This document shows, in pieces, positions 1,431-19,682 of a DNA stretch of 49,951 nucleotides (positions are counted from its first letter, which is position 1; each line of letters opens with the position of its first letter). This stretch comes from Candidatus Iainarchaeum sp. (GTDB taxonomy: Archaea > B1Sed10-29 > WALL01): assembly GCA_021162685.1 (NCBI GenBank), contig JAGGYF010000015.1, forward strand, positions 1 to 49,951, read 5' to 3'. The position numbers and the translations under genes were made by a program. The notes below the pieces were generated by a model. That model ran no database searches. It was not told where the DNA came from and saw only the letters and a program-made list of their open reading frames with translations.

Positions 1431-2342
1431 ATGCGTGTCCGTAAGACAAGGAGAAACTGGGTTCTGTTTGCTTTGGTCATTGTGCTACTCTTCATCCTCC
1501 TATTTACTGGCTTCTTTCTAGCAGCATTACTTGGCATGGACTTTGAGGGGGGCAAAGTAGGAGTTGTGCCTATAAAAGGCCCGATAGTAAGCGAAACCTC
1601 TGAGAATGTATGGGGAACCCAAGTAGGTGCAAGGGACATCATAAAGCTTATAGAAGCAGCAGATAATGATGAAAGCGTTTCTGTTATCCTTCTTGATATA
1701 AACAGCGGCGGTGGCTCAATAGTTGCGAGCAAGGAGATAATGCGCGCAGTAAAAAGGGCAAAGAAGCCAGTTGTTGCCTACATCGGAGATGCTGGCGCAT
1801 CTGGTGCATATTACATCGCAAGCGCTGCAGACATAATTGTTGCTGATGAGGATTCTATTACAGGAAGTATAGGTGTTCTTGCGATGATTCCTAATTACAA
1901 AGAGCTTATGCAGAAGATAGGCCTGAATATGACTATATTGAAGGAAGGGAAGAACAAAGTGATGGGAAATCCATACGAGGAGATGACACCTGAACAGAGA
2001 CAGATATTCCAAAATATCCTAAAACAAGCATATGAAGAGTTTAAATCAACAGTGATTGAGAACAGAAGGGGAAAGATAACAGAAGAGGCATTTGATAGTA
2101 TTGCAGATGGAAGAATACTAAACGGAAGGCAGGCAAAAGAGTGTGGACTGATTGACTACACAGGTTCAAGGGACCTTGCGCTCCGAAAAGCAGCAGGGTT
2201 AGGCAACATAGAAGGAAGACCAAAAGAGAAACTATTTGAGAAGAAGATAAGTCCGCTTTCATCAATACTTGGTGAGGCAGGATATGCATTTGGAAAAGGC
2301 ATGTTAAATGCAATACAGCAAGACGTGGTGGTGAGGGCATGA
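1431..2342 (+). CDS. sppA: Signal peptide peptidase SppA (S49 family)
   Basis: N-terminal TM; INSGGG, GASGAYYIA, TGSIGV, DGRILNGRQAK motifs. Confidence 0.93.
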   Translation: MRVRKTRRNWVLFALVIVLLFILLFTGFFLAALLGMDFEGGKVGVVPIKGPIVSETSENVWGTQVGARDIIKLIEAADNDESVSVILLDINSGGGSIVASKEIMRAVKRAKKPVVAYIGDAGASGAYYIASAADIIVADEDSITGSIGVLAMIPNYKELMQKIGLNMTILKEGKNKVMGNPYEEMTPEQRQIFQNILKQAYEEFKSTVIENRRGKITEEAFDSIADGRILNGRQAKECGLIDYTGSRDLALRKAAGLGNIEGRPKEKLFEKKISPLSSILGEAGYAFGKGMLNAIQQDVVVRA

Positions 2343-2911
2343 AACAAAAGGTAAAAAACATATTCAAAGCATTTTTTACTGGCTTCCTAACAGTTTCTAT
2401 CCTCCTCCTTCTAATGCACATTGTCGCACCAACATTAGGTATAAGATATATAACAACATTCACATCCACGTTTAATCTAAGTGTACCTCAATCTGGTAGA
2501 GTTCTCTATTTTTCACTAATGACACCAATCCTTGTTGGTGTGTTGTTTGCAATTGTTCAGTTTTTTGAGGATTACGAAGGACATTTATCTAGACAATACA
2601 GAAAGGTCGTGAAAACAAAAGAAACAGAGGAATTTATCGCAATTGTTCAGAATACATTATGGGGAACAGCAATTGGATTCTTCACAACGATGGTACTCTT
2701 CATATACCTGATGGGAAAACAGGGAACGTATACCATCCCCTATATTATAACAGTTACATCATCTGGGGGATTTGTTTCTGGTTCAACAACAATCATTTCT
2801 ATTTGCACTATTCTTGGTTTATTATATGGGTTATGGCAAGCAGTTAGGATAAGCAAACATAAGGGGAAGGGCAGGCATGTTAGAAAAACTCGTGTTACCA
2901 AAAAGACTTGA
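2339..2911 (+). CDS. Hypothetical membrane protein (about 4 TM)
   Basis: Four hydrophobic segments; ATGA overlap with sppA stop. Confidence 0.65.
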   Translation: MKQKVKNIFKAFFTGFLTVSILLLLMHIVAPTLGIRYITTFTSTFNLSVPQSGRVLYFSLMTPILVGVLFAIVQFFEDYEGHLSRQYRKVVKTKETEEFIAIVQNTLWGTAIGFFTTMVLFIYLMGKQGTYTIPYIITVTSSGGFVSGSTTIISICTILGLLYGLWQAVRISKHKGKGRHVRKTRVTKKT

Positions 2912-3088
2912 GAAAACATGTGACGAGGGTATTGAAAAAAGGAAACATTGAAGTAATTATCAAAAACATAGAACAATTGAGGAAATCTGGTATTTTTACA
3001 GAGCAACATGAAAAGCTACTCTCAAGAATATCTCGGAAATCCACAACCAAATAGTGTTTTATTAGATGAGGTACACAATATAATCCCT

Positions 3089-4090
3089 ATGTGGTCTCGC
3101 GAGGAGCTTCAGTTTTGCGTAAAATATCCTTACTCTAGTAGAACAAAGGAGATAGTGCGATGGTTAAATTTTGACCTAGAATCTCTTGACCCACAGGTAC
3201 TTGAAAGAGCATTGCAGAGGGCAAAAGAAGGCATAGAGATAGGCGTGATAAATCCAGAGGTTGCATCACGCTCACAGAAGATATTACTTGTAGAAATTCT
3301 CTCATACCCTGTTGCTAAAATCATTGTTTCATTGACAAAGGACAACTATCTTATAAATAGATATGCACATGCAGAGGCGAATACAGCAAGAAGATTTCTA
3401 TACAGAGATGACAACGGTGTAGTAGATGGGATTGCAACAGATGTTGGAATAAACATGCACAACAGAAGTGTGTTCTTTGTTGATTACCTAAATAACATTC
3501 CACTACAAGAACAATTCAAACTTGTAAATGCACCATTGGATAAAGGCAGGGTCACACTAACAAGGGAATCTGAGATAGAGATGATTGCTGAGGTACTACG
3601 AAATAATATTATACGTGACTTAAAGAAGCGATATGATATTCCTTCTATTTATTCAACCTATGCAAAAGAACTTAAACAGGGAGTAAGTGCAGAGAAGGCA
3701 GTAATCAGCGATGAGGACCTTGGTCCAGTAGATGCATCTTTGTTCCCCCCCTGTATAAAGGCATTGCTCTCTCGCGCACGTGCAGGCGAAAACATGGCTC
3801 ACCAACCGAGATTTGTTTTGGCCACCTTCTTAACTTCTATTAACATGCCAATAGACCAAATCATTTCAGTTTTCAGGAACATGCCAAATTTCAATGAAAA
3901 GAAGACAAGATATTACATAGAATATTCTGCTGGAAAGCGAGGTTCTGGTGTAAAATACTCTCCTCCTGCATGTGAGAAAATGAAATACTATGGACTGTGC
4001 GTTAATCCAGATGCACTATGCTCAAAAGTAAAACATCCATTGAGCTATTACGCAGCCAAGAAAAAGGGTAAGAGATATGCAAAGCATTGA
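3089..4090 (+). CDS. priL: DNA primase large subunit (start likely ATG 3089; ORF open from 3008)
   Basis: KYPY N-terminal motif; FPPCI, H..RF.LATFL, PNFNEKKTRY, YSPPACEKM..YGLC Fe-S domain with four Cys. Confidence 0.92.
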   Translation: MWSREELQFCVKYPYSSRTKEIVRWLNFDLESLDPQVLERALQRAKEGIEIGVINPEVASRSQKILLVEILSYPVAKIIVSLTKDNYLINRYAHAEANTARRFLYRDDNGVVDGIATDVGINMHNRSVFFVDYLNNIPLQEQFKLVNAPLDKGRVTLTRESEIEMIAEVLRNNIIRDLKKRYDIPSIYSTYAKELKQGVSAEKAVISDEDLGPVDASLFPPCIKALLSRARAGENMAHQPRFVLATFLTSINMPIDQIISVFRNMPNFNEKKTRYYIEYSAGKRGSGVKYSPPACEKMKYYGLCVNPDALCSKVKHPLSYYAAKKKGKRYAKH

Positions 4091-5195
4091 TTTTATAAGA
4101 AGGGCATTAACAGAATGGTATCAAAAACATACTGTTAAGGCTCCTCCCCAAATAGAAAGAAGGGAGTTTGGTGCAGGTGTAGACAAAAAGATAGATTTCA
4201 GACACTTGAAGTTTAGGGACGAGCAATCCTTAAACATGTATATAAGAACATCCTCCCCACTCTATATCTCATATTCTGCAGCATACTACGAATTCCCAGA
4301 TGGCAGGCCAATGGAAAAAAAGAACTGGTTAGGTGCAGACCTTGTTTTTGACCTTGATGCAGATGAGTATGAAACACCATGCACACACCCGAATGATTTA
4401 GTGTGTGAGATATGTATGGACAGGGTTAAACAAGAAGCAATAAAACTCATTGAAGAGTACCTTATACCTGATTTTGGCTTCAATAAAAACGACCTCTACA
4501 TTGTCTTTTCTGGGAATAGAGGGTACCACATACACATACGGAACGAGGAGGTACACCCACTTTCGCAAAATGGCAGGAAGGAAGTGGTTGATTATCTGAC
4601 AGCAAATGGGCTGGAACCGCAGTACCTTGGTTTGGTGGAGATGGGCAAGAGAATCTATGGACCAAAACTTGATAGCAAGGGATGGGCAGGAAAAATAGTA
4701 AGCGAAATATATAGCATACTCAGCAGTGATGATAAAAAGTTTATAGCAAAACAGTTGGGGATACCATCAAAAACTGCTGAGAGAATCATAAATGAAAAGG
4801 ATTTTATTCTTGAAGGCATAAAACATGGAGAGTGGTATAGGGCAGGTATACCAAAAAAGACATGGGAAAAAGCATTCAAAATCATTGCGATGAAAAAGGC
4901 AGCAGGAATTGACAAAAATGTCACGATTGACGTTTCAAGACTTATGCGTGTTCCTACATCCATACATGGTTCAACAGGATTACAGGCAGCTGAGATAAAA
5001 AACATTGATACGTTTGATGTGTTTAAAGACCCTGTTGTACTACCAGATGACCCAGTGACTGTTGTTGGAATAAAAAACATTGATTTCGTTCTCGCAGACC
5101 AGACATTTGAAATAAAAAATAACTTAAAGATTGAACTTCCAAAATATGCAGCAGTATATGCATGTGGAAAGGATATGGCAAAAGTGATTGAATGA
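4077..5195 (+). CDS. priS: DNA primase catalytic (small) subunit
   Basis: RREFG, ADLVFDLDAD, FSGNRGYHIH, IDKNVTIDVSRLMRVPTSIHG motifs. Confidence 0.96.
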   Translation: MQSIDFIRRALTEWYQKHTVKAPPQIERREFGAGVDKKIDFRHLKFRDEQSLNMYIRTSSPLYISYSAAYYEFPDGRPMEKKNWLGADLVFDLDADEYETPCTHPNDLVCEICMDRVKQEAIKLIEEYLIPDFGFNKNDLYIVFSGNRGYHIHIRNEEVHPLSQNGRKEVVDYLTANGLEPQYLGLVEMGKRIYGPKLDSKGWAGKIVSEIYSILSSDDKKFIAKQLGIPSKTAERIINEKDFILEGIKHGEWYRAGIPKKTWEKAFKIIAMKKAAGIDKNVTIDVSRLMRVPTSIHGSTGLQAAEIKNIDTFDVFKDPVVLPDDPVTVVGIKNIDFVLADQTFEIKNNLKIELPKYAAVYACGKDMAKVIE

Positions 5196-5761
5196 ATTAC
5201 GAAGAGATACGGAACATCCAAAGAAAAGAGCAAAACTCCTCACGCATTGTTGAGATAGATAGCAATTTCTATCAGCGTCTAGCTGATTTTGTCAAAGAAA
5301 AAACAGAGGCATATAAAAAAACTCAGGATCCAACAGAGTTCAGAGAGCTTGAGAATGTTGTAAAGCTTGCAAGGAGGGTTTTTGATTCAAGAGAGCAGAA
5401 GATAGTCATGAAAGCCCTCAGATCTGTTCGCATGAAGGAGTACGACGACAAAACAATGACTCCTGAAGAGAAGGAGATATATGCCGCGCTTGTAAATGTG
5501 CTAAAAAAACATAGAAAGTTCTTTGAGGGCGTTTTGATTGGTAATTACCAGTTCAATGGCCAAAAAAAGCAAGGAGATAGCACAACGCTTATAAATGGGG
5601 AGAATAATAACATACTGCTTGTCAGGATACGTAAATCTGTGCCGCGTTTTGTTGGCGCGGACTCAAAGGAGTACGGTCCTTTCAAAGCAAACGATATTGT
5701 AAAACTCCCAAAAAGGGAGGCCGACCTTCTAAAGGATCAAGGTTTGGCAGAGGTTGTTTGA
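5192..5761 (+). CDS. GINS complex subunit (Gins51-type)
   Basis: Helical A-domain plus C-terminal PRFVGADSKEYGPF...LP..EA..L...G B-domain; conserved position after priS. Confidence 0.85.
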   Translation: MNYEEIRNIQRKEQNSSRIVEIDSNFYQRLADFVKEKTEAYKKTQDPTEFRELENVVKLARRVFDSREQKIVMKALRSVRMKEYDDKTMTPEEKEIYAALVNVLKKHRKFFEGVLIGNYQFNGQKKQGDSTTLINGENNNILLVRIRKSVPRFVGADSKEYGPFKANDIVKLPKREADLLKDQGLAEVV

Positions 5762-5773
5762 TAGGGTGAGAGT

Positions 5774-6058
5774 ATGCAGATGCCAGATGAGATCAATACA
5801 TACTGTCCGTATTGCAGAAAGAAAACAAAACATAAAGTAAAGTTGTACAAGAAGGGAAAGGTTAGAACACTCGCAGAAGGGCAGAGGAAACACCTTGCAA
5901 AGGGAAAAGGGTACACAAGTAAGATTGCAGGAAAGGTTACAGTGTATAAACAGGCAAAACACCAGACTGTTGTGCTAACATGTACAGTCTGTAAGAAAAA
6001 GCATACAAAAACAATTGGTTCCAGGACAAAAAAGACACTTGAATTAAAGAAGAGGTGA
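5774..6058 (+). CDS. rpl44e: 50S ribosomal protein L44e
   Basis: TYCPYCRKKTKHKV, CTVC zinc ribbon; operon context. Confidence 0.95.
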   Translation: MQMPDEINTYCPYCRKKTKHKVKLYKKGKVRTLAEGQRKHLAKGKGYTSKIAGKVTVYKQAKHQTVVLTCTVCKKKHTKTIGSRTKKTLELKKR

Positions 6059-6063
6059 GGCCT

Positions 6064-6237
6064 ATGCTGACAAGGACAAAATTTATACGAGTGAAGTGTA
6101 GCGAGTGCGGTTCAGAACAGAATACATTCAGTTCTGCAAGTATGAAGGTAAAGTGTAAAACATGTGGAAAAATTTTAGTAGAACCTACTGGTGGAAAAGC
6201 AAAGATTAAGGATAAGATAGTGAAGGTGTTGTCTTGA
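6064..6237 (+). CDS. rps27e: 30S ribosomal protein S27e
   Basis: KFIRVKCSECGSEQ...VKCKTCGKILVEPTGGKA; GAGGTGA SD before ATG 6064. Confidence 0.96.
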   Translation: MLTRTKFIRVKCSECGSEQNTFSSASMKVKCKTCGKILVEPTGGKAKIKDKIVKVLS

Positions 6238-7004
6238 AGAGAGAAGAGTTCCCTGTTGTAGGAGAACTTGTGGTTGTCAAAATAAAAAACATAAAAAATT
6301 ACGGAGCATTTGTTGAGCTTATAGAATACGGAAAAGACGGATTCATACATGTTTCAAATATCGCAAGTGGATGGGTAAAAAACATAAGAAGTCATGTAAA
6401 TGAAGGACAGATAAGAGTTGCTGCAGTTGTGAATGTAGACCCTAAAAAGAATTTAATTGATGTATCGCTTAGGAAGGTCTCATCCAGTCAAGAGAAAAGG
6501 AAGATACAGGAGTGGAAAAGAGCAAAGAAGGCAGAGAAGCTATTGGAGAGGGTTGCACGCAAATTAAAAGTTCCAATGGAAAAGGCATGGAAGGAAGTAG
6601 GATGGCCATTGGAGGATGCATTTGGTGATCTATTTGCGGCATTTGAGGCAGCAAGTGCTGATGGAATGGATGCGTTTAAAGGCCTAAAAATCCCAAAAAA
6701 ATGGACAGAGGAGATTGTTAAGGTAGCAAAGGAGAGTGTGTCACCACCAACTGTGACAATAAGGGGAAAACTAAAAATGAAATTCTACTGCTCAGATGGT
6801 TTGGATAAGATAAAACAAACAATCAAGAAGATATCCTCAAAAAATGTAAATGTTTCATATCTTGGCGCACCTGATTATATGATAACAGTAACTGCCATGG
6901 ATTATCCAACTGCTGAGAAGCAACTCAAAGAGATCATAAAGATTGCTGAAACAGAGGCAAAAAAGAATGATGGTGAGGTAAGTTTTGAGAGGCTAGAAAA
7001 ATGA
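6234..7004 (+). CDS. eif2a: Translation initiation factor aIF2 alpha
   Basis: S1 domain (GELVVVKI, YGAFVEL, HVSNIASGWVKNIR), YLGAPDY; TTG start overlapping the rps27e stop. Confidence 0.95.
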   Translation: MKREEFPVVGELVVVKIKNIKNYGAFVELIEYGKDGFIHVSNIASGWVKNIRSHVNEGQIRVAAVVNVDPKKNLIDVSLRKVSSSQEKRKIQEWKRAKKAEKLLERVARKLKVPMEKAWKEVGWPLEDAFGDLFAAFEAASADGMDAFKGLKIPKKWTEEIVKVAKESVSPPTVTIRGKLKMKFYCSDGLDKIKQTIKKISSKNVNVSYLGAPDYMITVTAMDYPTAEKQLKEIIKIAETEAKKNDGEVSFERLEK

Positions 7005-13196: not shown

Positions 13197-14462
13197 TTAC
13201 TCACTTCCTATTTTAATACTATTTGCAAGTTCCTCAATTTTCACCTTCCTCTCTTTTCCAGATACCATATCTCTAACAGTTACCTCTCCATCTTTCAGCT
13301 CTTTTGGCCCAACAATGACACAATACCTTATGCCTTTTGCATTCACATATTCAAACTGCTTTCTCAGATTTCTTTCCATAACGTCTGTTTCAACGCAGAA
13401 ACCAGAAGAGCGCAATTGCGTTGCAATTTTTAGCGCCTCCACCCTAACATCCTTATTCACGGGTGCGACATATACCTCAGTCTTTTTCAACTCTGGGAAC
13501 AAACCCTGTTCTTCCATCAATTGTATGACCCTTTCAACACCATATGATATGCCTGTTGCAGGCGTTTTTCTTCCACCATATAACTCAATCATGTTATCAT
13601 AACGGCCTCCACCCCCACAAGACCATTTACCTCCTGCTTTTATCTCAAAAACCAAGCCAGTATAATACTCCAGTCCCCTAACAATACTCAGGTCAAGTTC
13701 TAGATAATTATCAATCCCCATTGCTTTTGCTATTGAGAATAATTCATCAATCTCTTCTGCTCCTTCCTTTCCAATATCAAATGCTTTAAATTCCTCTTTT
13801 ATTCTGTTCTCCTCTATCAGTTCCATAAGCTTTTCAGCATTTGGTACCTCTCTTTGCTCAAGCTCTTCTTTTACACCATCCCAACCTATCTTATCCAATT
13901 TATCAATGCTTCTGAACGCGTCTAATGTTTTTTCTTTTGGTATGCCTGCAGCCAATATCAATGCCTCAAGAATCTTTTTGTTGTTTACTTTGATCTTGAA
14001 CTCCTTGAATCCAAGTGCTTTGAAAACATCTATACTGCATTGGATTACTTCAAAATCAGCCATAACAGATGGACTACCAAAGATATCTATATCTGCTTGG
14101 GTAAATTCTCTATACCTTCCAGCCTGTGGCCTATCATACCTCCAAACCTTATCAATACAATACCTTTTGAATGGCTTAACAAGTTCTGGTTTTGAAGCAA
14201 CAACCCTTGATGTTGGTACAGTTAGATCAAACCGTAATCCAAGTTCCCTTCCAGATTTGTCTTTAAAGTAATATATCTCATCCTTTATTGCCTCTCCTCC
14301 ACCTCCCTTCGCAGCCAGTAGTTCAAAACTCTCAACTGCGGGTGTTTCCATGGGTTCAAACCCATATCTCTGAAAAACCTCTTCCATTACAGAGAACACA
14401 TACTTTCGTTTGCGCATATCCTCTGGAAGAAAATCCCTCATACCACGAACAGTTTGATACAT
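13197..14462 (-). CDS. hisS: Histidyl-tRNA synthetase
   Basis: RGMRDF, LRFDLT, WRYDRPQAGRYREFTQ, RGLEYYTG, GGGRYD; anticodon-binding domain. Confidence 0.98.
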   Translation of the reverse strand: MYQTVRGMRDFLPEDMRKRKYVFSVMEEVFQRYGFEPMETPAVESFELLAAKGGGGEAIKDEIYYFKDKSGRELGLRFDLTVPTSRVVASKPELVKPFKRYCIDKVWRYDRPQAGRYREFTQADIDIFGSPSVMADFEVIQCSIDVFKALGFKEFKIKVNNKKILEALILAAGIPKEKTLDAFRSIDKLDKIGWDGVKEELEQREVPNAEKLMELIEENRIKEEFKAFDIGKEGAEEIDELFSIAKAMGIDNYLELDLSIVRGLEYYTGLVFEIKAGGKWSCGGGGRYDNMIELYGGRKTPATGISYGVERVIQLMEEQGLFPELKKTEVYVAPVNKDVRVEALKIATQLRSSGFCVETDVMERNLRKQFEYVNAKGIRYCVIVGPKELKDGEVTVRDMVSGKERKVKIEELANSIKIGSE

Positions 14463-14491: not shown

Positions 14492-16009
14492 TTATTTCAT
14501 TTTACCTATCTCACTTTCAACTGCTTTTAGTATCCTCCCTTGCTTTACGACCTTACTTAGCCTCTCTATGTCCTTATATAGTGGTCTATCCTCACCCAAA
14601 AATTTCACATATTTTCTGACCTCATCATATGCTGCTTTTACTCCTTTTCCAGGTTCGCCCCCTCTAAAATCTAATGCTTGGGCAGCTGCCAATAGCTCAA
14701 TAGCAACAACAGCCGCTGTGTTATCAATAATCTTTTTCGTTTTCAATGCAGTGTTCATCCCCATGGACACAAAATCCTCCTGGTCAGCAGCTGTTGGTAT
14801 ACTTCCAATTGCAGCAGGTGTGGAGAGCACTCTATTCTCATTTACTAGGAACGCAGCCGTGTACTGGGGAATCATTATACCAGAGTACATGCCTGCTCCC
14901 TCTATAAGAAATGCTGGTAATCCTTGGTTCAAATTTGGGTTTATGAGCCTGTTTAACCTTCTTTCTGATATCACGGATACTGTGGTTATGCCTATTCCAA
15001 GTAATTCCAAAGGCAATGCTATTGGAGTGCCCTGGAAGTTTGCGCCAGTAAGATACACCCCATCTGGGAAGAACAATGGATTGTCTGCGCCACCATTCAA
15101 CTCTATCTCAACCTGTTTCTTCACAAATGCGATGATATCTTTTACAGTACCCACTACCTGAGGGGTGCTCCTTATAGAATATGCATCCTGTACTCTCTCC
15201 TGCTTCACCAATATCTCAGAACCCTCTATTAACCTTCGTATGTTTTCTGCTGATTTTATCCCACCTGGAAACCCCCTTGCCTTTAGTATCCTCTCATCAA
15301 ACGCCATCGTAACAGCTTTCAATGCCTCAAAACTCATAGCTGCTGCAATCTCAGAGGTTTTTGTTATCACATCAGCATCGTATATCTCTAATGCAGCCAT
15401 ACCTGTAATCAGTTGTGAGCCGTTTATTGCAGCCAAACCATCTCTTATCTCAAACCTTATTGGTTCAATACCCGCTTTCCTCAGCGCGTCTTTACCCTCC
15501 ATTCGCTCTCCATTGTAAAATGCTTCCCCCTCCCCTATCAACACCAACATAGCTTGTGCCAGAGGCGCTAGATCACCGCATGCTCCAACACTTGCAGGAT
15601 ACATTACTGGTGTTATACCTCTGTTCATTATCTCAATCATCTTTTCAACAACCTCAGTGCGTATCCCAGATATCCCTTTACATAGGGTATTTATTCGTGC
15701 AGTAATGGCAGCTCTTACATATTCCTCTTCCACAGGTTCTCCATAACCTGCTGCGTGACTATAAACCAAATACTTTTGGAATTCCCTTGCCTGCTGTTCT
15801 GTTAATATGACATCAGCTAGCTCTCCTATCCCCGTTGTTGTACCATACACTGCTACCTTTTTCTCAAACAGTTTCTCAACCGTTTCTCTACTTCTTTTTA
15901 TCCTCTCTTTGGTACTCTCATCTATCTCAATCCTCTCTTTCCATCTTGCAATTCTCACAATCTTTTCTACTGTTAATGTTTTTCCATCAAGTTTAATCAT
16001 CTTTCTCAC
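14492..16009 (-). CDS. hutH: Histidine ammonia-lyase (MIO family; start GTG 16009 or ATG 16000)
   Basis: VYGTTTGIG, SHAAG (HAL-type SH), SVGACGDLAPL, VQDAYSIR, DNP, GANFQG, QEDFVSMG. Confidence 0.9.
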   Translation of the reverse strand: MRKMIKLDGKTLTVEKIVRIARWKERIEIDESTKERIKRSRETVEKLFEKKVAVYGTTTGIGELADVILTEQQAREFQKYLVYSHAAGYGEPVEEEYVRAAITARINTLCKGISGIRTEVVEKMIEIMNRGITPVMYPASVGACGDLAPLAQAMLVLIGEGEAFYNGERMEGKDALRKAGIEPIRFEIRDGLAAINGSQLITGMAALEIYDADVITKTSEIAAAMSFEALKAVTMAFDERILKARGFPGGIKSAENIRRLIEGSEILVKQERVQDAYSIRSTPQVVGTVKDIIAFVKKQVEIELNGGADNPLFFPDGVYLTGANFQGTPIALPLELLGIGITTVSVISERRLNRLINPNLNQGLPAFLIEGAGMYSGIMIPQYTAAFLVNENRVLSTPAAIGSIPTAADQEDFVSMGMNTALKTKKIIDNTAAVVAIELLAAAQALDFRGGEPGKGVKAAYDEVRKYVKFLGEDRPLYKDIERLSKVVKQGRILKAVESEIGKMK

Positions 16010-16342
16010 CTCGTATAGGGCCCAAGCCGGGATTCAGCGTCCCTAGGGGGGCACATCCCCTCTGGACTCTTTTCATCACCCTTTCCAGGGCCCAAGCCGG
16101 GATTTGAACCCGGGCCAGCAGATCCACAGTCTGCTATGCTGCCTACTACACCACTTGGGCCGCATTCTTTCACGTTTTTAGAAATAGGTTTTCCTTGCTC
16201 GTTGTTAGGTTTGGTTATCACTATCTGTTCCCCATCAAATACAGCAAGAACCTCGTCAGCAATGCCAAGCGATTCACGTGCTTCCAAGGGCAGAACTAGC
16301 CTAAACTTCTTATCTAGCTTTATTCTCCAAGCCTTTGTGAAG
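16006..16342 (-). CDS. AbrB/SpoVT-type DNA-binding domain, copy 2; no canonical start before the first strand; frame continues through tRNA-His
   Basis: ...WRIKLDKKFRLVLPLEARESLGIADEVLAVFDGEQIVITKP; lies in the +1 frame relative to the racemase 3' end. Confidence 0.6.
16017..16104. repeat. 18-bp perfect direct repeat of the tRNA-His 3' end (16017-16034 and 16087-16104), att-like
   Basis: agggcccaagccgggatt occurs twice, 70 bp apart. Confidence 0.9.
16089..16161 (-). tRNA. tRNA-His (GTG) with encoded G-1; CCA not encoded
   Basis: G-GCCCAAG/CTTGGGC-C acceptor stem; GCAGA-CTGTGGA-TCTGC anticodon arm; CCGGG-TTCAAAT-CCCGG T arm. Confidence 0.97.
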
Positions 16343-17029
16343 TAACTCCCCCCTATAAGACCGCGTTACTGCGGCTTCTGCAAGTACTTGCAATGAATCA
16401 ATTAGTGTTATGTCGCAATCCCCTTGTCTCAATACGATAGGAAGTTCCGTACACCCCAAAATAATTGCCTCAATCTTCTTATCTTTAAGGTCTTCAATTA
16501 CTTGAAGTAATCTCTCTTTTTTCTCTCTTTTTTTGCCTGCTATAATATTCATTATGCATTCAGTGACTATCTCTTGTTGTTTTCTATTTGGCACTATGCA
16601 TTGTATCCCCCTTTTTTCAAGGGCATTTTTGTACGCACCCATCTTAATAGTAGTTTCCGTTGCGAGAAGACCAACCCTTCTAAATCCTCTTTTTTCACAA
16701 GCTTTTGCTGTCTCCTCAATGATACTCATTATGGAGATCTCACTTTCCAACCTCTTCGCAAAGATTGATGCTGTATTGCATGGAATACAAACGAAGTCCG
16801 CACCATAGCTTTTAAGGGACACGCATCCACCAGCTAAAAACCTAAGTAAGACATCCTCGTTTCCCTTTTCTGAGATAACATCAACAGTAGGTAAATTTAA
16901 GATTATGATAGGTGGAAAATCCTCATTCTTTTTTGCGCCGAACTTCGTTTGGCAGATAGATATCATCCTTCTGTAAAACTCTCCTGTGGCTTCTGGCCCC
17001 ATTCCTCCCAATACTCCAATGGTTTCCAT
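16310..17029 (-). CDS. Cofactor-independent amino-acid racemase (Asp/Glu racemase, RacX/YgeA-like); in frame with the upstream AbrB domain
   Basis: METIGVLGGMGPEAT, IPCNTA and ILGCTEL catalytic Cys pair, GLLAT. Confidence 0.9.
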   Translation of the reverse strand: METIGVLGGMGPEATGEFYRRMISICQTKFGAKKNEDFPPIIILNLPTVDVISEKGNEDVLLRFLAGGCVSLKSYGADFVCIPCNTASIFAKRLESEISIMSIIEETAKACEKRGFRRVGLLATETTIKMGAYKNALEKRGIQCIVPNRKQQEIVTECIMNIIAGKKREKKERLLQVIEDLKDKKIEAIILGCTELPIVLRQGDCDITLIDSLQVLAEAAVTRSYRGELLHKGLENKAR

Positions 17030-17246
17030 TTTACCTATCTCTTCACAGTTTCTAGAGATCAATGTTCCCTTTTCTCCATTGGGCTTGGATAGAACCAGTG
17101 AATTGCCAATAACCTTAATTTCAACCGAGTCAGTTACTCCGAGCTTTTCTCTTGCCATGAGGGGTAGAACTAGCCTAAACTTCTTGTCTAGCTTTACCCT
17201 GAATGTAAAGCCACCTCCAAACCCGCCTCCTTGAAGGCAGGTGAAG
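17030..17246 (-). CDS. AbrB/SpoVT-type DNA-binding domain, copy 1; fused in frame to the racemase; no canonical start before the first strand
   Basis: FRVKLDKKFRLVLPLMAREKLGVTDSVEIKVIGNSLVLSKP; about 31 bp (17166-17196) nearly identical to copy 2 (16292-16322). Confidence 0.65.
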
Positions 17247-17267
17247 TGAATCGCCTTTCATAGTCAT
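17175..17267 (-). CDS. 30-aa leader ORF (MTMKGDSLHLPSRRRVWRWLYIQGKARQEV*)
   Basis: ATG about 25 bp downstream of a BRE-TATA; overlaps the AbrB frame out of phase. Confidence 0.5.
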   Translation of the reverse strand: MTMKGDSLHLPSRRRVWRWLYIQGKARQEV

Positions 17268-17291
17268 CCCGTAATGTTATGTTATTCCCAC

Positions 17292-17306
17292 TATATAAAT
17301 GTTTTT
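17292..17306 (-). promoter_or_regulatory. BRE-TATA promoter for the histidine locus
   Basis: Minus strand reads AAAAACA-TTTATATA; spacing predicts a TSS near 17270. Confidence 0.65.
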
Positions 17307-17345
17307 GCACGAAGTATTTTATGCTCCAAAAAACTAAAAGAAAGC

Positions 17346-19682
17346 ATGAAACAAGCACTCCTCTGGAAACCATTGGAGAATAAAACAGTGCAGTGTAACC
17401 TCTGTAATAGGCACTGCATTATACCAGACGGAAAACGAGGGCTTTGCAGAGTAAGGGAAAACCGCGACGGCGTTTTGTATGCAATGACATATGCAAAGCC
17501 ATGCTCAATTGCAATTGATCCAATAGAGAAAAAACCATTGTTCCATTTCCTTCCTGGTACTTCTTCTCTATCAGTAGCAACAGTTGGTTGCAACTTTTTC
17601 TGTAAGCATTGTTTTGTACCAGAAACGTTCGTTATTACAAAAGATGGGGCACACACAATAGAGGAATTATTTAAAAAAGAAGACATCCACGTTCTAACAA
17701 AATCAAATGAGCTACATAGGGTCACAAAGCGATTTAAACATCCCTATTCTGGAAAAATCCTAAAAATAAAGGCAGCATTTCTACCTGAGGTCTTGTGTAC
17801 ACCTGACCACACGTTTTTTGCTACCACTGAGCCAAAGGATGGAATATCTGAGGTTGAAGCTAGAGACTTAACCAAACAACATTTCCTTGTTGTTCCAAGA
17901 AAACGCCCAACGAGTACAATGCCAATTATTGATGCCCGCACAATCCTCTCAAAATTTGAAACTAGAAGTTTCCAGGTAAAGAGAAAGAGACTAACTTCTC
18001 AGATTTTAGAGAAAATGATCAATCTAAAGGAAGAAGGGAAAACATCAAGAGAGATAGCATCTTGTTTGGGTTTCCATCCTACCTATATCAGGAAAATATT
18101 TTCCATTTTGAAACACCATGGAAAGGAAAGACTACTAACACGTACCTTTGAAACCAGTCTTGTTTTTGGTGAACGCATCCGATTTAAAAATGAGAAAGGT
18201 GTAGGCATACCTAAAGAAGTAAAACTTGACAAAGACCTAGCATATCTTTTCGGTATGTACTGTGCAGAAGGCAGCGTCTCCCGACATCCTTCCCGACCAA
18301 ATTCTTTGCTTCTTTGTTTCTCGTTTGGAAAGCATGAAAAGAAACTTGTAGACAAAACAAGTTTATTAATAGAAAAGGTATTTGGGATAAAACCCAAAAT
18401 CGGGATAACTAAAACCACATTGCAGGTTAGGGTGTCTAGCTCCTCGCTTGCTGCGTTCTTTGGCGTACTTTGTGGTATGAAGAGCCAAAATAAAAAAGTT
18501 CCAGAACCTCTCTTCTGCTCTCCAAAGCGCGTGATAGGCGCATTTTTGAAAGGATATTTTGATGGGGACGGCTGTTATAAGAAAAAATACGTTGATGCAG
18601 TTTCTGTTTCAAAAAAACTTATTATGGGGATATGCGAACTCCTTATCATGCAAGGCGTGCTACCTGGCTTTTACGAGCATATACCAAGAAAAGAAAGGCA
18701 AATCTGTGGAAGAAAGGTACATGTGAAACCAGAATACATAGTCAGATTTTCATCAGATTTTGATTTTGAAAAAGGCATCTGGAGAAGGAGGAGACATAAA
18801 AAATACCACTATAAAGAAACCGACAAATACTTTTTCGTTCCAATCAGAAAGATGTCGGAGCAACATTTTGAAGGATATGTATACAATTTAGAGGTAGAAA
18901 ACGACCCAACATACACTGCAAATTTTGTAGCGGTCCACAATTGCCAAAATTGGGGAATATCGCAAGCAAGTCCAGAAGATTTTTTGACAGAAGAAGTACT
19001 TCCAAAAGAGCTCGTTTCTATTGCTAAGAAAAACAACTGTAAAAGCATTGCCTATACATACACAGAGCCAACAATCTTTTTTGAGTACGCGTTTGATACA
19101 TCTAACCTAGCGCATGAAAGCAACATAAAGAATGTTTATGTAACTAATGGATACATGACTGAGGACATGTTAGATATGTACAAAAGCTTAGATGCGGCAA
19201 ATGTTGATATAAAAGGGGACGAGCGGTTCTATAAAGAGGTATGTGGAAACGTTGAGATGGAAAAAATCCTAGAGAATATAAAATACATGAGAAAAAAGGA
19301 CATCCATGTTGAGATAACAAACCTAATTATTCCAGGATACAATGATGACAAGGATTCTATAACACGCATAGCACAGTTCTGCAAGGATACTGATCCAGAC
19401 ATGCCTCTGCACTTCACCGCATTCTACCCAGCATATAAAATGTTAAACGTTCCTCCAACAAAGCGCGAGGTATTAGTAAAAGCCAGAGAAATGGCTCTAG
19501 ACATTGGCGTAAGATATGTATACTGCGGAAATACCTACCCTGGTGACCCCTATGAGAATACCTATTGTCCAAATTGCGGCCATCTGCTCATAAAGAGGCA
19601 TGGTTTTTCTGTTTTAAGTATAGATATGAATGGGGATAGGTGTCCAAGCTGTGGTATGAAAATACCTATTGTTCTTGAATAA
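17346..19682 (+). CDS. amrS: AmmeMemoRadiSam system radical SAM enzyme, intein-containing
   Basis: CNLCNRHC, GLCRVREN, DPIEKKPLFHF, GCNFFCKH/CQNW, AYTYTEP, YVTNGY, HFTAFYP, NTYCPNC. Confidence 0.92.
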   Translation: MKQALLWKPLENKTVQCNLCNRHCIIPDGKRGLCRVRENRDGVLYAMTYAKPCSIAIDPIEKKPLFHFLPGTSSLSVATVGCNFFCKHCFVPETFVITKDGAHTIEELFKKEDIHVLTKSNELHRVTKRFKHPYSGKILKIKAAFLPEVLCTPDHTFFATTEPKDGISEVEARDLTKQHFLVVPRKRPTSTMPIIDARTILSKFETRSFQVKRKRLTSQILEKMINLKEEGKTSREIASCLGFHPTYIRKIFSILKHHGKERLLTRTFETSLVFGERIRFKNEKGVGIPKEVKLDKDLAYLFGMYCAEGSVSRHPSRPNSLLLCFSFGKHEKKLVDKTSLLIEKVFGIKPKIGITKTTLQVRVSSSSLAAFFGVLCGMKSQNKKVPEPLFCSPKRVIGAFLKGYFDGDGCYKKKYVDAVSVSKKLIMGICELLIMQGVLPGFYEHIPRKERQICGRKVHVKPEYIVRFSSDFDFEKGIWRRRRHKKYHYKETDKYFFVPIRKMSEQHFEGYVYNLEVENDPTYTANFVAVHNCQNWGISQASPEDFLTEEVLPKELVSIAKKNNCKSIAYTYTEPTIFFEYAFDTSNLAHESNIKNVYVTNGYMTEDMLDMYKSLDAANVDIKGDERFYKEVCGNVEMEKILENIKYMRKKDIHVEITNLIIPGYNDDKDSITRIAQFCKDTDPDMPLHFTAFYPAYKMLNVPPTKREVLVKAREMALDIGVRYVYCGNTYPGDPYENTYCPNCGHLLIKRHGFSVLSIDMNGDRCPSCGMKIPIVLE
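17610..18941 (+). mobile_element. Intein (444 aa) with LAGLIDADG endonuclease and HTH insert
   Basis: CFVPETFV start, TPDHTF block B, LFGMYCAEG and FLKGYFDGDG, VYNLEVE, VHN|C end. Confidence 0.93.

What the first reader, a model, noticed from the sequence alone, without database searches (positions are those of the whole stretch)
16310..17267. Candidate histidine-sensing +1 ribosomal frameshift controlling two AbrB-type regulators
Seen: neither AbrB frame has an ATG/GTG/TTG between its upstream in-frame stop and the first strand (R.KLDKKFRLVLP). Each overlaps, in the +1 frame, an ORF that ends inside the AbrB sequence (leader ...KARQEV*, racemase ...KAR*). Both upstream ORFs carry in-frame CTT-CAC (Leu-His) within the overlap, at 17246-17241 and 16342-16337. 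The contexts are AGGCGAT-tca-CTT-CAC and AGGGGGGAG-tta-CTT-CAC: an SD-like element, 3 nt, then CTT. The promoter puts the transcript start at the leader ATG. Established: prfB shifts +1 at AGGGGG-UAU-CUU-UGA and Ty1 at CUU-AGG when the A-site is slow. Inference: low His-tRNA stalls the ribosome at CAC, tRNA-Leu slips CUU to UUC, and the AbrB(-racemase) regulators are made. That would be an amino-acid sensor sitting in the locus for tRNA-His, hutH and hisS. A second possible site in copy 1 is GGAGG-tgg-CTT-TAC at about 17210.
Basis: partly seen in the sequence, partly recalled or inferred. Interest (0 to 1): 0.88.

Follow-up and report, generated by a model that had tools for sequence, protein, structure and literature searches.

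The report
Histidine-codon frameshift switch in archaea
A tiny leader reading frame with one histidine codon overlaps, one base out of phase, a small DNA-binding-protein gene at the head of the histidine tRNA and synthetase operon, and the same design with asparagine or tyrosine codons heads the matching operons in two groups of small archaea, which points to an undescribed ribosome-slippage sensor of amino-acid supply.

Summary
Both AbrB-like frames lack ATG/GTG/TTG before their first strand, and each lies +1 to an upstream ORF that carries in-frame CTT-CAC (17246-17241, 16342-16337).

It is not a local oddity. I found the same module at 37 AbrB-like ORFs in two archaeal phyla, plus once before hisD. 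The module is: start codon, a few codons, a GGTGA-like element, 3 nt, a "slippery" codon, then one sensor codon.

The sensor codon matches the operon:
- CAC/CAT in 25 of 25 modules next to tRNA-His, hisS, hisD, hisI or a racemase.
- AAT/AAC in 8 of 8 next to tRNA-Asn, gatCA, AsnRS or AsnA.
- TAT before tyrS (1 of 1).

The preceding codon fits +1 re-pairing: XTT before C/T, XAA before A. Thirteen of the 37 ORFs have no canonical start, yet the start-less pairs compared show dN/dS of about 0.2. In eight loci a +1-frame stop abuts the site. In one locus the two frames overlap by only three codons (GTT CAT CGG).

No conserved RNA structure and no Rfam family was found. The best reading is a hungry-codon +1 frameshift that makes an AbrB-family regulator (about 0.7). 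It is not shown experimentally. The searches listed found no description in print.

The parts
17285..17299 (-). Promoter-like TTTATATA (17299-17292) directly followed by GTGGGAA (17291-17285). Candidate TATA box plus candidate operator.
   Evidence: Read. The exact TATAGTGGGAA is unique in the 1.1 Mb genome. It is conserved in 11 of 13 aligned His-type leaders of the phylum. The hexamer GTGGGA/TCCCAC lies beside the TATA box in 28 of 35 module loci, against 0.043 per 200 nt elsewhere in the same loci.
17175..17267 (-). Frame-0 leader ORF, 30 codons. The second ATG, at 17261, is the one shared with the G002 ortholog.
   Evidence: The stretch from that ATG through CTT-CAC is identical over 21 nt in G002, while synonymous sites of the AbrB-like ORFs compared (window copy 2 against G002, copy 1 against G002) differ at pS 0.55-0.70.
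17241..17255 (-). Module A: SD-like GGCGAT (17255-17250), TCA (17249-17247), CTT (17246-17244), His codon CAC (17243-17241). Proposed +1 shift site.
   Evidence: The 16S rRNA 3' end reads ..GATCACCTCCT, so GGTGAT would be its complement.
17205..17218 (-). Module B in the leader frame: GGAGGTGG, CTT (17210-17208), TAC (17207-17205). A second possible +1 site, with a Tyr codon. Its spacing to the first strand equals that of the other loci of the phylum.
17048..17257 (-). AbrB-like copy 1 in the +1 frame. It is open from 17257 with no canonical start. The domain match is 17209-17048, and the frame continues without a stop into the racemase.
   Evidence: profile E 2.3e-24.
16310..17029 (-). Amino-acid racemase of the Asp/Glu racemase family, with its own ATG at 17029. 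Its last 12 codons carry module C.
   Evidence: Pfam PF01177 5.5e-32; TIGR00035 2.8e-57. In the second phylum the same order is found: AbrB-like ORF with a His-codon module, then a racemase (L079, L095), followed by hisS in L079.
16337..16354 (-). Module C in the racemase frame: AGGGGGGAG (16354-16346), TTA, CTT (16342-16340), CAC (16339-16337). Proposed +1 shift site into copy 2.
16162..16365 (-). AbrB-like copy 2 in the +1 frame, open from 16365. The domain match is 16335-16174. There is no stop before the tRNA; the frame stays open to 16009.
   Evidence: profile E 1.4e-25. dN/dS against the G002 ortholog is 0.195. The gene caller's record starts it at the internal TTG (P0010).
16088..16161 (-). 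tRNA-His (GTG), with the extra 5' G encoded at 16161.
   Evidence: ARAGORN; Rfam 64.4 bits; sequence read.
14492..16000 (-). Histidine ammonia-lyase (hutH), same strand, downstream.
   Evidence: PF00221 2.5e-165; TIGR01225 559 bits, above its cut-off.
13197..14462 (-). Histidyl-tRNA synthetase (hisS), same strand, downstream.
   Evidence: PF13393 3.6e-50 plus the anticodon-binding domain.

Best explanation
This is a programmed +1 ribosomal frameshift that senses the supply of one charged tRNA.

Proposed steps (all inferred):
1. Transcription starts about 24 nt after a TATA box.
2. Ribosomes initiate at the leader ATG (frame 0). After a few codons they sit with CUU in the P site and the His codon CAC in the A site. 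A GGTGA-like stretch that can pair with the 16S rRNA tail lies 3 nt behind.
3. If His-tRNA is plentiful, CAC is read and the ribosome ends the short leader.
4. If His-tRNA is scarce, the ribosome waits and peptidyl-tRNA-Leu re-pairs from CUU to UUC. ACN is then read and an AbrB-family DNA-binding protein is made.
5. That protein probably acts on the GTGGGAA/TTCCCAC element beside the TATA box of the operon that supplies His-tRNA (tRNA-His and hisS; in relatives also his biosynthesis genes).

The window holds the device twice in series: leader into AbrB1-racemase, and the racemase 3' end into AbrB2, followed by tRNA-His, hutH and hisS.

Shown here: the anatomy, its conservation, the match of sensor codon to operon, and purifying selection on start-less ORFs. 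Inferred: the shift itself, its dependence on His-tRNA, DNA binding, and the sign of regulation.
For: (1) Anatomy in the window.

(2) Spread.
- A profile of the family finds it in 12 of 31 genomes of the window's phylum at E<=1e-5.
- It also occurs in a second phylum. There 371 genomes were searched and I examined 35 loci: 15 delivered by the tool and 20 that I picked for a short open frame. Eighteen of the 35 carry the module.

(3) A frame-0 ATG/GTG lies 3-8 codons upstream in 20 of 20 modules of the first phylum, leaving out window copy 2, where the racemase ORF is frame 0. Where one is recognisable, the SD of the short 5' leader is spaced for that start.

(4) The sensor codon follows the neighbour.
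- CAC (21) or CAT (4) in 25 of 25 modules beside tRNA-His, hisS, hisD, hisI or racemase-hisS.
- AAT (3) or AAC (5) in 8 of 8 beside tRNA-Asn, gatC-like plus amidase, AsnRS or AsnA-like genes.
- TAT before tyrS.
- Genome G161 holds both types: ATG GGT GAA CGA CTT CAC before tRNA-His and ATG GGT GAA CGT CAA AAC before AsnRS.

(5) Frame-specific constraint among 14 His modules of the first phylum.
- The +1-frame codon before TTC encodes H, A, V, D or Y but ends in C in 12 of 14. The other two are AAG, which gives GTT in frame 0.
- The codon after it varies at its third base: ACC, ACA, ACG.
- Across all modules that codon is ACN or ATN, which is the synonymous CAC/CAT or AAC/AAT change in frame 0.
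- TTC is only 36% of Phe codons and CAC 34% of His codons in this genome.

(6) Slippery rule. The P-site codon is CTT, GTT or TTT before C- or T-initial sensor codons, and GAA or CAA before A-initial ones. A +1 slip therefore keeps pairing at positions 2 and 3. CUU is also the shift codon of prfB and Ty1 (PMC5009743, passages).

(7) Start-less ORFs. Thirteen of 37 AbrB-like ORFs have no ATG/GTG/TTG between the upstream stop and the first strand; in two of them the only one lies in or upstream of the promoter. Pairs of start-less ORFs show dN/dS of 0.18-0.21, and the window's two copies against each other 0.39.

(8) In 8 loci a +1-frame TAG abuts the site. The 0/+1 overlap is only GTT CAT CGG in L092 and GTT CAC AAG ATC in L104.

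(9) The module also occurs without an AbrB gene. In G002 a copy heads a 52-codon +1 ORF whose stop overlaps the hisD start (ATGA).

(10) The internal ATG cannot be the start. A family profile aligns from the first strand to solved AbrB N-domains. A homodimer model places residues 1-9 in the interface. Its score is 0.42 against a best control of 0.00. That mark was reached by 20 of 30 solved pairs and 1 of 23 single chains. The runs agree in at least 94% of contacts and pLDDT is at least 67. AbrB dimers are solved, so the pass may only reflect likeness.

(11) No RNA alternative: RNAalifold gives 0 pairs on 11 leaders, and Rfam at E<=1 finds only the tRNA gene itself there, as tRNA plus an overlapping sub-threshold tRNA-like match.
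Against: - No experiment and no proteomic or ribosome-profiling data.
- Twenty-four of the 37 ORFs also have an in-frame GTG, ATG or TTG at or shortly after the site. It is often the GTG inside the GGTGA element, so a shift is not strictly needed there.
- In start-less His loci the +1 frame has ATT or ATC two codons before TTC in 6 cases. These could be weak starts.
- With GTT, GAA or CAA in the P site, the first position mispairs after the slip.
- The window's first SD-like element (GGCGAT) has a central mismatch.
- I picked out the Asn site after I had seen the His pattern, and I chose the second-phylum loci by short open frames. Relatives are not independent.
- Copy 2 of the window would be made only as a tail on the racemase.
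- The AbrB-like frame has no stop before the tRNA in window copy 2 and in L003-L007. This is unexplained.
- hutH, a His-degrading gene in the same string, fits poorly with a starvation response.
- The tRNA-Leu set is incompletely known: two ARAGORN runs found 28 and 26 tRNAs and no GAG anticodon.
Confidence: 0.7

Rival explanations
1. Regulatory upstream ORF without a frame change. The AbrB-like ORF starts on its own, at GTG or ATG where present and at near-cognate ATT or ATC elsewhere. The overlapping leader ORF, with its single cognate codon, only gates that start: a ribosome stalled at the hungry codon covers the start.
For: - Twenty-four of the 37 ORFs have an in-frame canonical start at or shortly after the site.
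- At the codon two before TTC, the 13 His-type ORFs of the first phylum show ATG (2), GTG (1), ATT (5), ATC (1), GTT (2, each with GTG just before), AAT (1) and AGT (1).
- Gene callers start the family at M-x-F-T.
Against: - L007 (AAT) and window copy 2 (AGT) have no near-cognate codon there.
- In L078, L079, L095, L104 and L111 a TAG abuts the site and no canonical start follows before the first strand.
- This reading does not explain why the codon before the sensor codon is always of the form XTT or XAA, matched to the sensor's first base.
- It does not explain why the GGTGA-like element keeps a 3-nt spacing.
- L010's leader ATG lies 22 nt after the TATA box, so the transcript would be near leaderless and an internal GTG without an SD is unlikely to be used.
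Confidence: 0.17
2. RNA-level sensing. The conserved cognate triplet acts as a specifier that pairs with the anticodon of uncharged tRNA, as in a T-box, with no role for a translating ribosome.
For: A single cognate triplet sits at a fixed place upstream of tRNA and synthetase genes, which is reminiscent of a T-box specifier. That resemblance is recalled, not tested.
Against: - No consensus structure: RNAalifold gives 0 pairs on 11 leaders.
- Rfam finds no T-box or other leader family at E<=1 over 15500-17800.
- The triplet is always in frame with a start codon 3 to 20 codons upstream, and always in -1 phase to the AbrB-like ORF. An RNA-only switch would not need either.
Confidence: 0.03
3. 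Decay or error. The start-less AbrB-like frames are pseudogenes left by the racemase insertion, or single-base assembly errors.
For: The window's arrangement (a duplicated AbrB-like gene flanking a racemase, and a 29-nt repeat of the tRNA 3' end) shows recent rearrangement.
Against: - dN/dS is about 0.2 between start-less orthologs.
- The same start-less +1 phase occurs in 12 loci from different genera and two phyla.
- Other assemblies of the sites show no indel.
Confidence: 0.03

Closest known systems
Autoregulatory +1 frameshift of bacterial release factor 2 (prfB)
   Same: A short frame-0 ORF, a CUU shift codon, an internal SD-like element a few bases upstream, and a slow A site whose decoder is the product that the locus supplies. 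The main product lies in +1. Some family members need no shift. Source: PMC5009743, passages.
   Different: The slow A-site codon here is a sense codon, read by the tRNA that the same operon encodes or charges, not a stop codon read by the gene's own product. The +1 product is a DNA-binding protein, not the limiting factor itself. The hosts are archaea. P-site codons other than CUU (GUU, GAA, CAA) also occur.
Ty1 / ABP140 / EST3 +1 frameshifting at CUU_AGG_C in yeast, and hungry-codon frameshifting in starved E. coli
   Same: Slippage of peptidyl-tRNA-Leu from CUU while a sense codon with scarce tRNA waits in the A site (PMC5009743, passages).
   Different: In those cases the slow codon is fixed by a rare tRNA, or the shift is an error of starvation. 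Here the sensor codon changes with the operon (His, Asn, Tyr), which suggests a dedicated feedback sensor. In the passages I read, the review says it is unclear how far natural hungry-codon shifting is put to use.
Leader-peptide attenuation of bacterial amino-acid operons (his, phe, trp) and T-box leaders
   Same: The function looks alike: a cognate codon in a leader reports charged-tRNA supply to genes for the same amino acid. This comparison is recalled.
   Different: There is one cognate codon, not a run of them. No terminator or antiterminator hairpins, and no conserved structure, were found. There is no T-box match. The read-out is a change of reading frame.
AbrB / SpoVT / MazE / MraZ swapped-hairpin DNA-binding domains
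   Same: The family profile matches solved AbrB, Abh and SpoVT N-domains at E 2e-7 to 6e-6, and MraZ at about 1e-4. A dimer model is supported.
   Different: - Single sequences stay below the curated cut-offs.
- There is a C-terminal (I/V)S(R/K)N motif of unknown role.
- The position at the head of tRNA and synthetase operons is specific to this family.
- Only 10 relatives were found among 5.8 billion proteins by the word-index search.
Saccharolobus solfataricus fucA1 -1 frameshift
   Same: Programmed frameshifting in an archaeal cellular gene.
   Different: It is -1, at an A-AAA-AAT heptamer, and has no sensing role. According to PMC8211752 (abstract and section 7 read) it was the only demonstrated archaeal case as of 2021.

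Membership tests
Programmed +1 ribosomal frameshift (prfB / Ty1 type) | Two overlapping ORFs, with the downstream one in +1 and lacking its own start | tested here: met
   Both window copies meet this. Overall, 13 of 37 related ORFs lack ATG/GTG/TTG before the first strand. The other 24 have a possible start.
Programmed +1 ribosomal frameshift (prfB / Ty1 type) | A P-site codon whose tRNA can re-pair in the +1 frame | tested here: met
   XTT_C/T or XAA_A in all modules of the two frame tables, apart from L040 (TAT_CAC), which has an in-frame ATG. Re-pairing is complete only for CUU and UUU. GUU, GAA and CAA keep 2 of 3 positions.
Programmed +1 ribosomal frameshift (prfB / Ty1 type) | [quoted passage not shown] | not testable with these tools
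   The codon is cognate to the operon in 34 of 34 assignable modules. Its decoding rate cannot be computed.
Programmed +1 ribosomal frameshift (prfB / Ty1 type) | An SD-like stimulator about 3 nt upstream of the shift codon | tested here: inconclusive
   GGTGAT, GGTGAA, GGTGGA or AGTGAT is present in most loci and is complementary to the 16S tail. The window has GGCGAT and GGGGGAG. No shuffled control was run.
Programmed +1 ribosomal frameshift (prfB / Ty1 type) | A trans-frame protein is observed | not testable with these tools
   No proteomic data. No RNA run was listed.
AbrB/SpoVT family (swapped-hairpin DNA-binding domain) | Sequence match to the domain model above the curated threshold | tested here: inconclusive
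   PF04014 E 0.004 (17.5 bits against a cut-off of 24.7) for copy 2 and no hit for copy 1. TIGR01439 gives 24.9 and 21.8 bits against a cut-off of 28.3. The family profile against PDB hits AbrB 1z0r at E 2e-7.
AbrB/SpoVT family (swapped-hairpin DNA-binding domain) | Dimer formed by interleaved N-terminal strands | tested here: met
   Homodimer model: score 0.42 against a best control of 0.00. That mark was reached by 20 of 30 solved pairs and 1 of 23 single chains. Contacts agree in at least 94% and pLDDT is at least 67. Residues 1-9 touch residues 30-35 of the partner. The pass may only reflect likeness to solved AbrB dimers.
AbrB/SpoVT family (swapped-hairpin DNA-binding domain) | Binds DNA | not testable with these tools
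   There is only a candidate site: GTGGGA/TCCCAC beside the TATA box in 28 of 35 loci.
Leader-peptide transcription attenuator | A run of cognate codons plus alternative terminator and antiterminator hairpins | tested here: not met
   There is one cognate codon at the site. RNAalifold finds 0 consensus pairs on 11 leaders.
T-box leader | A match to the T-box covariance model (specifier loop and T-box sequence) | tested here: not met
   An Rfam scan of 15500-17800 at E<=1 lists only the tRNA gene, once as tRNA and once as an overlapping sub-threshold tRNA-like match.

The most novel reading that the evidence does not exclude
Two phyla of small-genome archaea run their aminoacyl-tRNA supply operons (His, Asn, Tyr, perhaps more) with a modular sense-codon +1 frameshift sensor.

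- A leader places the cognate codon in the A site behind a slippery codon and an SD-like brake.
- Shortage of that charged tRNA shifts the ribosome into an AbrB-family regulator that acts at a shared TTCCCAC element.
- The module is portable. It was copied in front of hisD, where the +1 ORF couples translation into the his operon.
- It can be stacked: there are two successive His-codon shifts in L078 and L108.
- In the window it can string AbrB1, racemase and AbrB2 into one chain.

This would be an archaeal counterpart of bacterial attenuation and T-boxes.
Probability: 0.6. Interest if true: 0.95.

Novelty: new variant of a known kind. Interest (0 to 1): 0.9.

Why it matters
- I know of no described regulatory mechanism for aminoacyl-tRNA synthetase or tRNA genes in Archaea. 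That statement is recalled, and my searches listed none.
- As of 2021 only one programmed frameshift, a -1 case, had been demonstrated in an archaeal gene (PMC8211752).
- If the reading holds, this is the first +1 programmed frameshift in archaeal cellular genes.
- It would also be the first natural device in which a sense codon serves as the sensor of its own charged tRNA. It would answer, in the affirmative, the question left open in the Atkins et al. review (PMC5009743, passages read): whether hungry-codon shifting is put to regular use.
- It gives a directly testable model for how auxotrophic, host-dependent archaea gauge amino-acid supply. hisD was found in only 1 of 31 genomes of the phylum.
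- It shows that gene callers systematically truncate or miss these genes.
- It offers a compact, re-targetable amino-acid sensor: changing two codons would change the amino acid sensed.

Tried and rejected
**Checks that led nowhere or were set aside**
- Rfam over 15500-17800 at E<=1: only the tRNA gene, as tRNA plus an overlapping sub-threshold tRNA-like match.
- RNAalifold on 11 His-type leaders: no pairs. An idea that GUGGG of the promoter motif pairs with UUCAC was dropped. The motif lies between the TATA box and the expected transcript start, and it occurs inverted upstream of the TATA box in other loci.
- Dicodon count in long ORFs of the genome: CTT-CAC has an observed/expected ratio of 0.52, but every other CTT- and GTT-led pair counted shows 0.40-0.65, so it says nothing.
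- Scan of the window's own genome for further modules (SD-like, 3 nt, CTT/GAA/GTT, short frame 0, long +1): 22 hits. One is the known site. The rest look like ordinary genes read out of frame, for example ribosomal protein L29.
- Pattern WWAGTGGGA-N25-55-CTTCAC in 31 genomes: 7 known loci and 4 chance hits without ORFs, against 7 control hits.
- The search for related loci found only 3 loci in each collection, partly the same genomes. L038 repeats L003. L040 has an in-frame ATG, TAT-CAC and no His gene nearby.
- Two neighbours stay unassigned. L037 (CTT-TAT) has only a convergent D-aminoacyl-tRNA deacylase and a NUDIX gene nearby. For L096 and L100 (CTT-CAC) the next ORF has no Pfam family.
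- AbrB-ACT fusions of the second phylum (L081-L089, L091): no consistent module. L080 and L090 look like antitoxins. L093 was a false hit. L094 and L097 have plain ATG starts. L102 is unclear. L098 was not analysed because the profile hit was misplaced.
- tRNA census by ARAGORN with and without introns: 26 and 28 genes, which is incomplete. A second 'tRNA-His' on contig C44 looks spurious.
- The AlphaFold monomer (pLDDT 81.7) shows few paired strands, as expected for a domain that folds as a dimer. I ran no fold search.
- No RNA holder was listed for the stretch, so expression could not be examined.
Supplementary files of papers were not consulted.

**Readings considered and rejected**
- Transcriptional slippage: there is no homopolymer at the sites, and the G6 run before site 2 is not conserved.
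- A quadruplet-reading tRNA-Leu: it would disturb every in-frame CTTC.
- The internal ATG at 17158 or TTG at 16287 as true starts: they remove the first strand.


Full report
**What is in the window.**
All features below are on the minus strand.
- A TATA-like TTTATATA (17299-17292) is followed at once by GTGGGAA.
- A 30-codon leader ORF runs 17267-17175.
- An AbrB-like frame lies +1 to the leader. It is open from 17257 and runs on, without a stop, into an Asp/Glu-family amino-acid racemase that ends at 16310.
- A second AbrB-like frame lies +1 to the racemase and is open from 16365.
- Then come tRNA-His (16160-16088, with the extra 5' G encoded at 16161), a 29-nt repeat of the tRNA 3' end, histidine ammonia-lyase (16000-14492) and histidyl-tRNA synthetase (14462-13197).

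- Neither AbrB-like frame has ATG/GTG/TTG between its upstream stop and its first strand.
- Both upstream ORFs carry in-frame CTT-CAC (17246-17241 and 16342-16337).

Contigs assembled independently from three public runs cover both sites with no difference and no indel. Their depth is low, and they may come from the samples behind the window.

**The protein.**
Single-sequence matches to AbrB models are below the curated thresholds. A profile of 18 family members matches solved AbrB, Abh and SpoVT N-terminal domains at E 2e-7 to 6e-6, aligned from the first strand.

A homodimer model is supported.
- Score 0.42 against a best control of 0.00.
- That mark was reached by 20 of 30 solved pairs and 1 of 23 single chains.
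- At least 94% of contacts are shared between runs, and pLDDT is at least 67.
- Residues 1-9 lie in the interface.
- The pass may reflect likeness to solved AbrB dimers.

The residues just after the proposed shift site therefore belong to the fold. The internal ATG (17158) and TTG (16287) cannot be the real starts. A public gene call begins copy 2 at that TTG.

**The same arrangement elsewhere in the phylum.**
The genome is 1.1 Mb. Record titles of relatives read Candidatus Iainarchaeum and Micrarchaeota.

A profile of the family matches 12 of 31 genomes of the phylum at E<=1e-5. In 11 of these genomes and two metagenome contigs the locus has the same order:
- the TATA-GTGGGA motif;
- a frame-0 ATG or GTG;
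- 2-6 codons;
- (C/G)TT-CA(C/T);
- the AbrB-like ORF in +1;
- where a His gene follows: tRNA-His (intact in 6 relatives, interrupted by one insertion in 4) and then, where the locus reaches that far, hisS. Pfam confirms hisS in L005, L006, L007, L010 and L017. L040 has no His gene nearby.

G002 belongs to the same family as the window's genome. Its leader is identical over 21 nt, from the ATG through CTT-CAC, and it has the same start-less +1 frame.

**Which frame is under selection.**
I compared 14 His modules of this phylum.
- The +1-frame codon before TTC encodes His, Ala, Val, Asp or Tyr, yet ends in C in 12 of 14. The two exceptions are AAG, which gives GTT in frame 0.
- TTC is never TTT.
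- The codon after it varies freely at its third base (ACC, ACA, ACG).
- L017 has ATC there, which is CAT in frame 0.
- In this genome TTC is 36% of Phe codons and CAC 34% of His codons.

So the constraint lies in frame 0 up to the His codon and in +1 after it. That is the signature expected at a frameshift site.

Pairs of ORFs that both lack a canonical start have dN/dS of 0.18-0.21. They are therefore translated.

Paralogs in the same phylum answer it.
- Before tyrosyl-tRNA synthetase (NF006330, 435 bits), the leader reads ATG GGT GAA CGT CTT TAT.
- Before tRNA-Asn, a gatC-like ORF and an amidase (the amidase by Pfam in L033), three loci from three families read ..TTA/TGC GAA AAT A...

In a second, larger phylum of small genomes I searched 371 genomes. 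I examined 35 loci: 15 delivered by the tool and 20 that I chose for short open frames. Eighteen carry the module.
- Eleven have CAC or CAT and stand before tRNA-His, hisS, hisI-hisS, racemase-hisS or a racemase.
- Five have AAC and stand before AsnRS (NF003037, 465-499 bits), or before asparagine synthetase A-like genes with tRNA-Asn.
- Two have CAC and an unassigned neighbour.
- The other 17 are AbrB-ACT fusions (10), antitoxin-like genes (2), plain-start genes (2), a false hit, one unclear locus and one not analysed. None of them showed a module.

Genome G161 carries both types. Their leaders differ essentially at the two critical codons: CGA CTT CAC before tRNA-His and CGT CAA AAC before AsnRS.

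In total the sensor codon is cognate in 25 of 25 His, 8 of 8 Asn and 1 of 1 Tyr modules with assignable neighbours. Five further sites have no assignable neighbour: L037, L040, L096, L100 and the window's module B.

**Features that point to slippage rather than only stalling.**
- The P-site codon is CTT, GTT or TTT before sensor codons that start with C or T, and GAA or CAA before those that start with A. After a +1 slip the tRNA keeps pairing at positions 2 and 3, and for CUU and UUU at all three.
- CUU is the shift codon of prfB and Ty1.
- Here a GGTGAT, GGTGAA or GGTGGA-like stretch, complementary to the 16S tail ..GATCACCTCCT, lies 3 nt before the P-site codon in most loci. The window has the weaker GGCGAT and GGGGGAG.
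- In eight loci a TAG in the +1 frame abuts the site. The region where frame 0 and +1 are both open is three codons in L092 (GTT CAT CGG) and four in L104.
- Thirteen of the 37 AbrB-like ORFs have no canonical start.
- In the second phylum 10-25 unconserved codons link the module to the domain, and the +1 frame is open throughout.
- Two loci (L078, L108) need two successive +1 steps, each at a His codon.
- In G002 a copy of the module without an AbrB gene heads a 52-codon +1 ORF whose stop overlaps the hisD start. hisD occurs in only that one of 31 genomes.

**What argues against, and what is unexplained.**
- Twenty-four of the 37 ORFs also have a possible in-frame start. Often it is the GTG inside the GGTGA element, so a shift is not compulsory there.
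- ATT or ATC two codons before TTC could be a weak start in six start-less loci, though not in L007 or in window copy 2.
- I recognised the Asn site after seeing the His pattern, and the second-phylum loci were chosen by ORF length.
- Relatives are not independent.
- The sign of regulation is unknown.
- GTGGGA/TCCCAC lies beside the TATA box in 28 of 35 loci, against 0.043 per 200 nt elsewhere. It sits downstream of the TATA box in the window's group and upstream of it elsewhere, and it is shared by the His and Asn types.
- In window copy 2 and L003-L007 the AbrB-like frame has no stop before the tRNA.
- Window copy 2 would be made only as an extension of the racemase.
- hutH in the same gene string fits a starvation response poorly.

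**The racemase.**
The racemase is not a stray insertion. An AbrB-like gene with a His-codon module, followed by a racemase (and then hisS in L079), recurs in the second phylum (L079, L095).

**Comparison with what is known.**
The device works like the prfB autoregulatory shift, and like Ty1-type hungry-codon shifting. The difference is that the slow codon is a sense codon matched to the operon's amino acid.

It fails the tests for a leader-peptide attenuator: one codon rather than a run, and no hairpins. It also fails the test for a T-box: no Rfam match.

A 2021 review states that only one programmed frameshift, a -1 case, had been shown in Archaea (PMC8211752; abstract and section 7 read). 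Five full-text searches listed no paper that describes this system. I saw only the listings, apart from the two reviews named. Supplements were not available.

**Verdict.**
- The interpretation passes the comparative test its author proposed.
- I put a cognate-codon-sensing +1 frameshift at about 0.7.
- I put a regulatory leader ORF with independent, partly non-canonical initiation at about 0.17.
- The remainder goes to RNA-level sensing, decay and other explanations.
- The finding is a new variant of a known kind (regulatory +1 frameshifting) and of high interest.

Noticed in passing
window 16006-16034 and 16076-16104 (minus strand); L003, L005, L008, L009: The last 29 nt of tRNA-His are repeated 70 nt downstream at 83% identity, just before hutH. 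In four relatives the tRNA-His gene is interrupted by one insertion outside the usual intron place. ARAGORN calls tRNA-His only after one internal segment is removed in silico.
   Followed up: partly
window 14492-16000 (minus strand): The histidine ammonia-lyase reads ..SVGACGDLAPL.. where I recall Ala-Ser-Gly as the tripeptide that forms the MIO group. A Cys stands in place of Ser.
   Followed up: no
window 17346-19679 (plus strand): The divergent radical SAM gene carries an intein with a LAGLIDADG domain (Pfam). The G002 ortholog is 371 codons long and lacks it. Its start lies about 50 nt from the shared TATA-like element.
   Followed up: partly
28 of 35 module loci; window 17285-17291: The hexamer GTGGGA/TCCCAC lies beside the TATA box. 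It is downstream of the TATA box in the window's His-type group and upstream of it, inverted, in the Asn type and in the second phylum. It is shared by the His and Asn types, so it cannot on its own give amino-acid specificity.
   Followed up: partly
L078 (G218) and L108 (G205): Two modules in series. The AbrB-like frame is +2 to the first ATG and is reached by two +1 steps, each at a His codon (TTT_CAT then GTT_CAT; CTT_CAC then GTT_CAC). In L108 the middle frame has no start of its own.
   Followed up: partly
window 16162-16009; L003-L007: The AbrB-like frame has no stop codon before the tRNA and reads into it. The conserved (I/V)S(R/K)N motif sits 3-5 codons, and in one locus 9, before the tRNA 5' end. 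Cutting by RNase P would leave a message without a stop.
   Followed up: no
L081-L089, L091 (second phylum): A separate family of AbrB-like domains fused to an ACT domain, an amino-acid-binding fold (Pfam on L082). No consistent leader module was seen. Two of them stand before an RNA polymerase subunit H-like gene; I identified that gene by eye.
   Followed up: partly
L063 (G002:C19) 1772-6532: G002 is the only one of the 31 genomes of the phylum with hisD. It carries hisD, hisC fused to a HAD phosphatase, hisB, hisH and a hisA-like gene directly after tRNA-His.
   Followed up: partly
L105 2158-2239; L092 1534-1618: ARAGORN calls a tRNA-Leu (taa) between an Asn-type AbrB-like ORF and AsnRS, and a tRNA-Leu (tag) just upstream of a His-type leader.
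   Followed up: no
L037 (G025:C94): An AbrB-like ORF with CTT-TAT lies convergent to a D-aminoacyl-tRNA deacylase (PF04414) and a NUDIX gene. The window's copy 1 also has a CTT-TAC site and is joined to a racemase. A link to D-amino acids is possible but untested.
   Followed up: no
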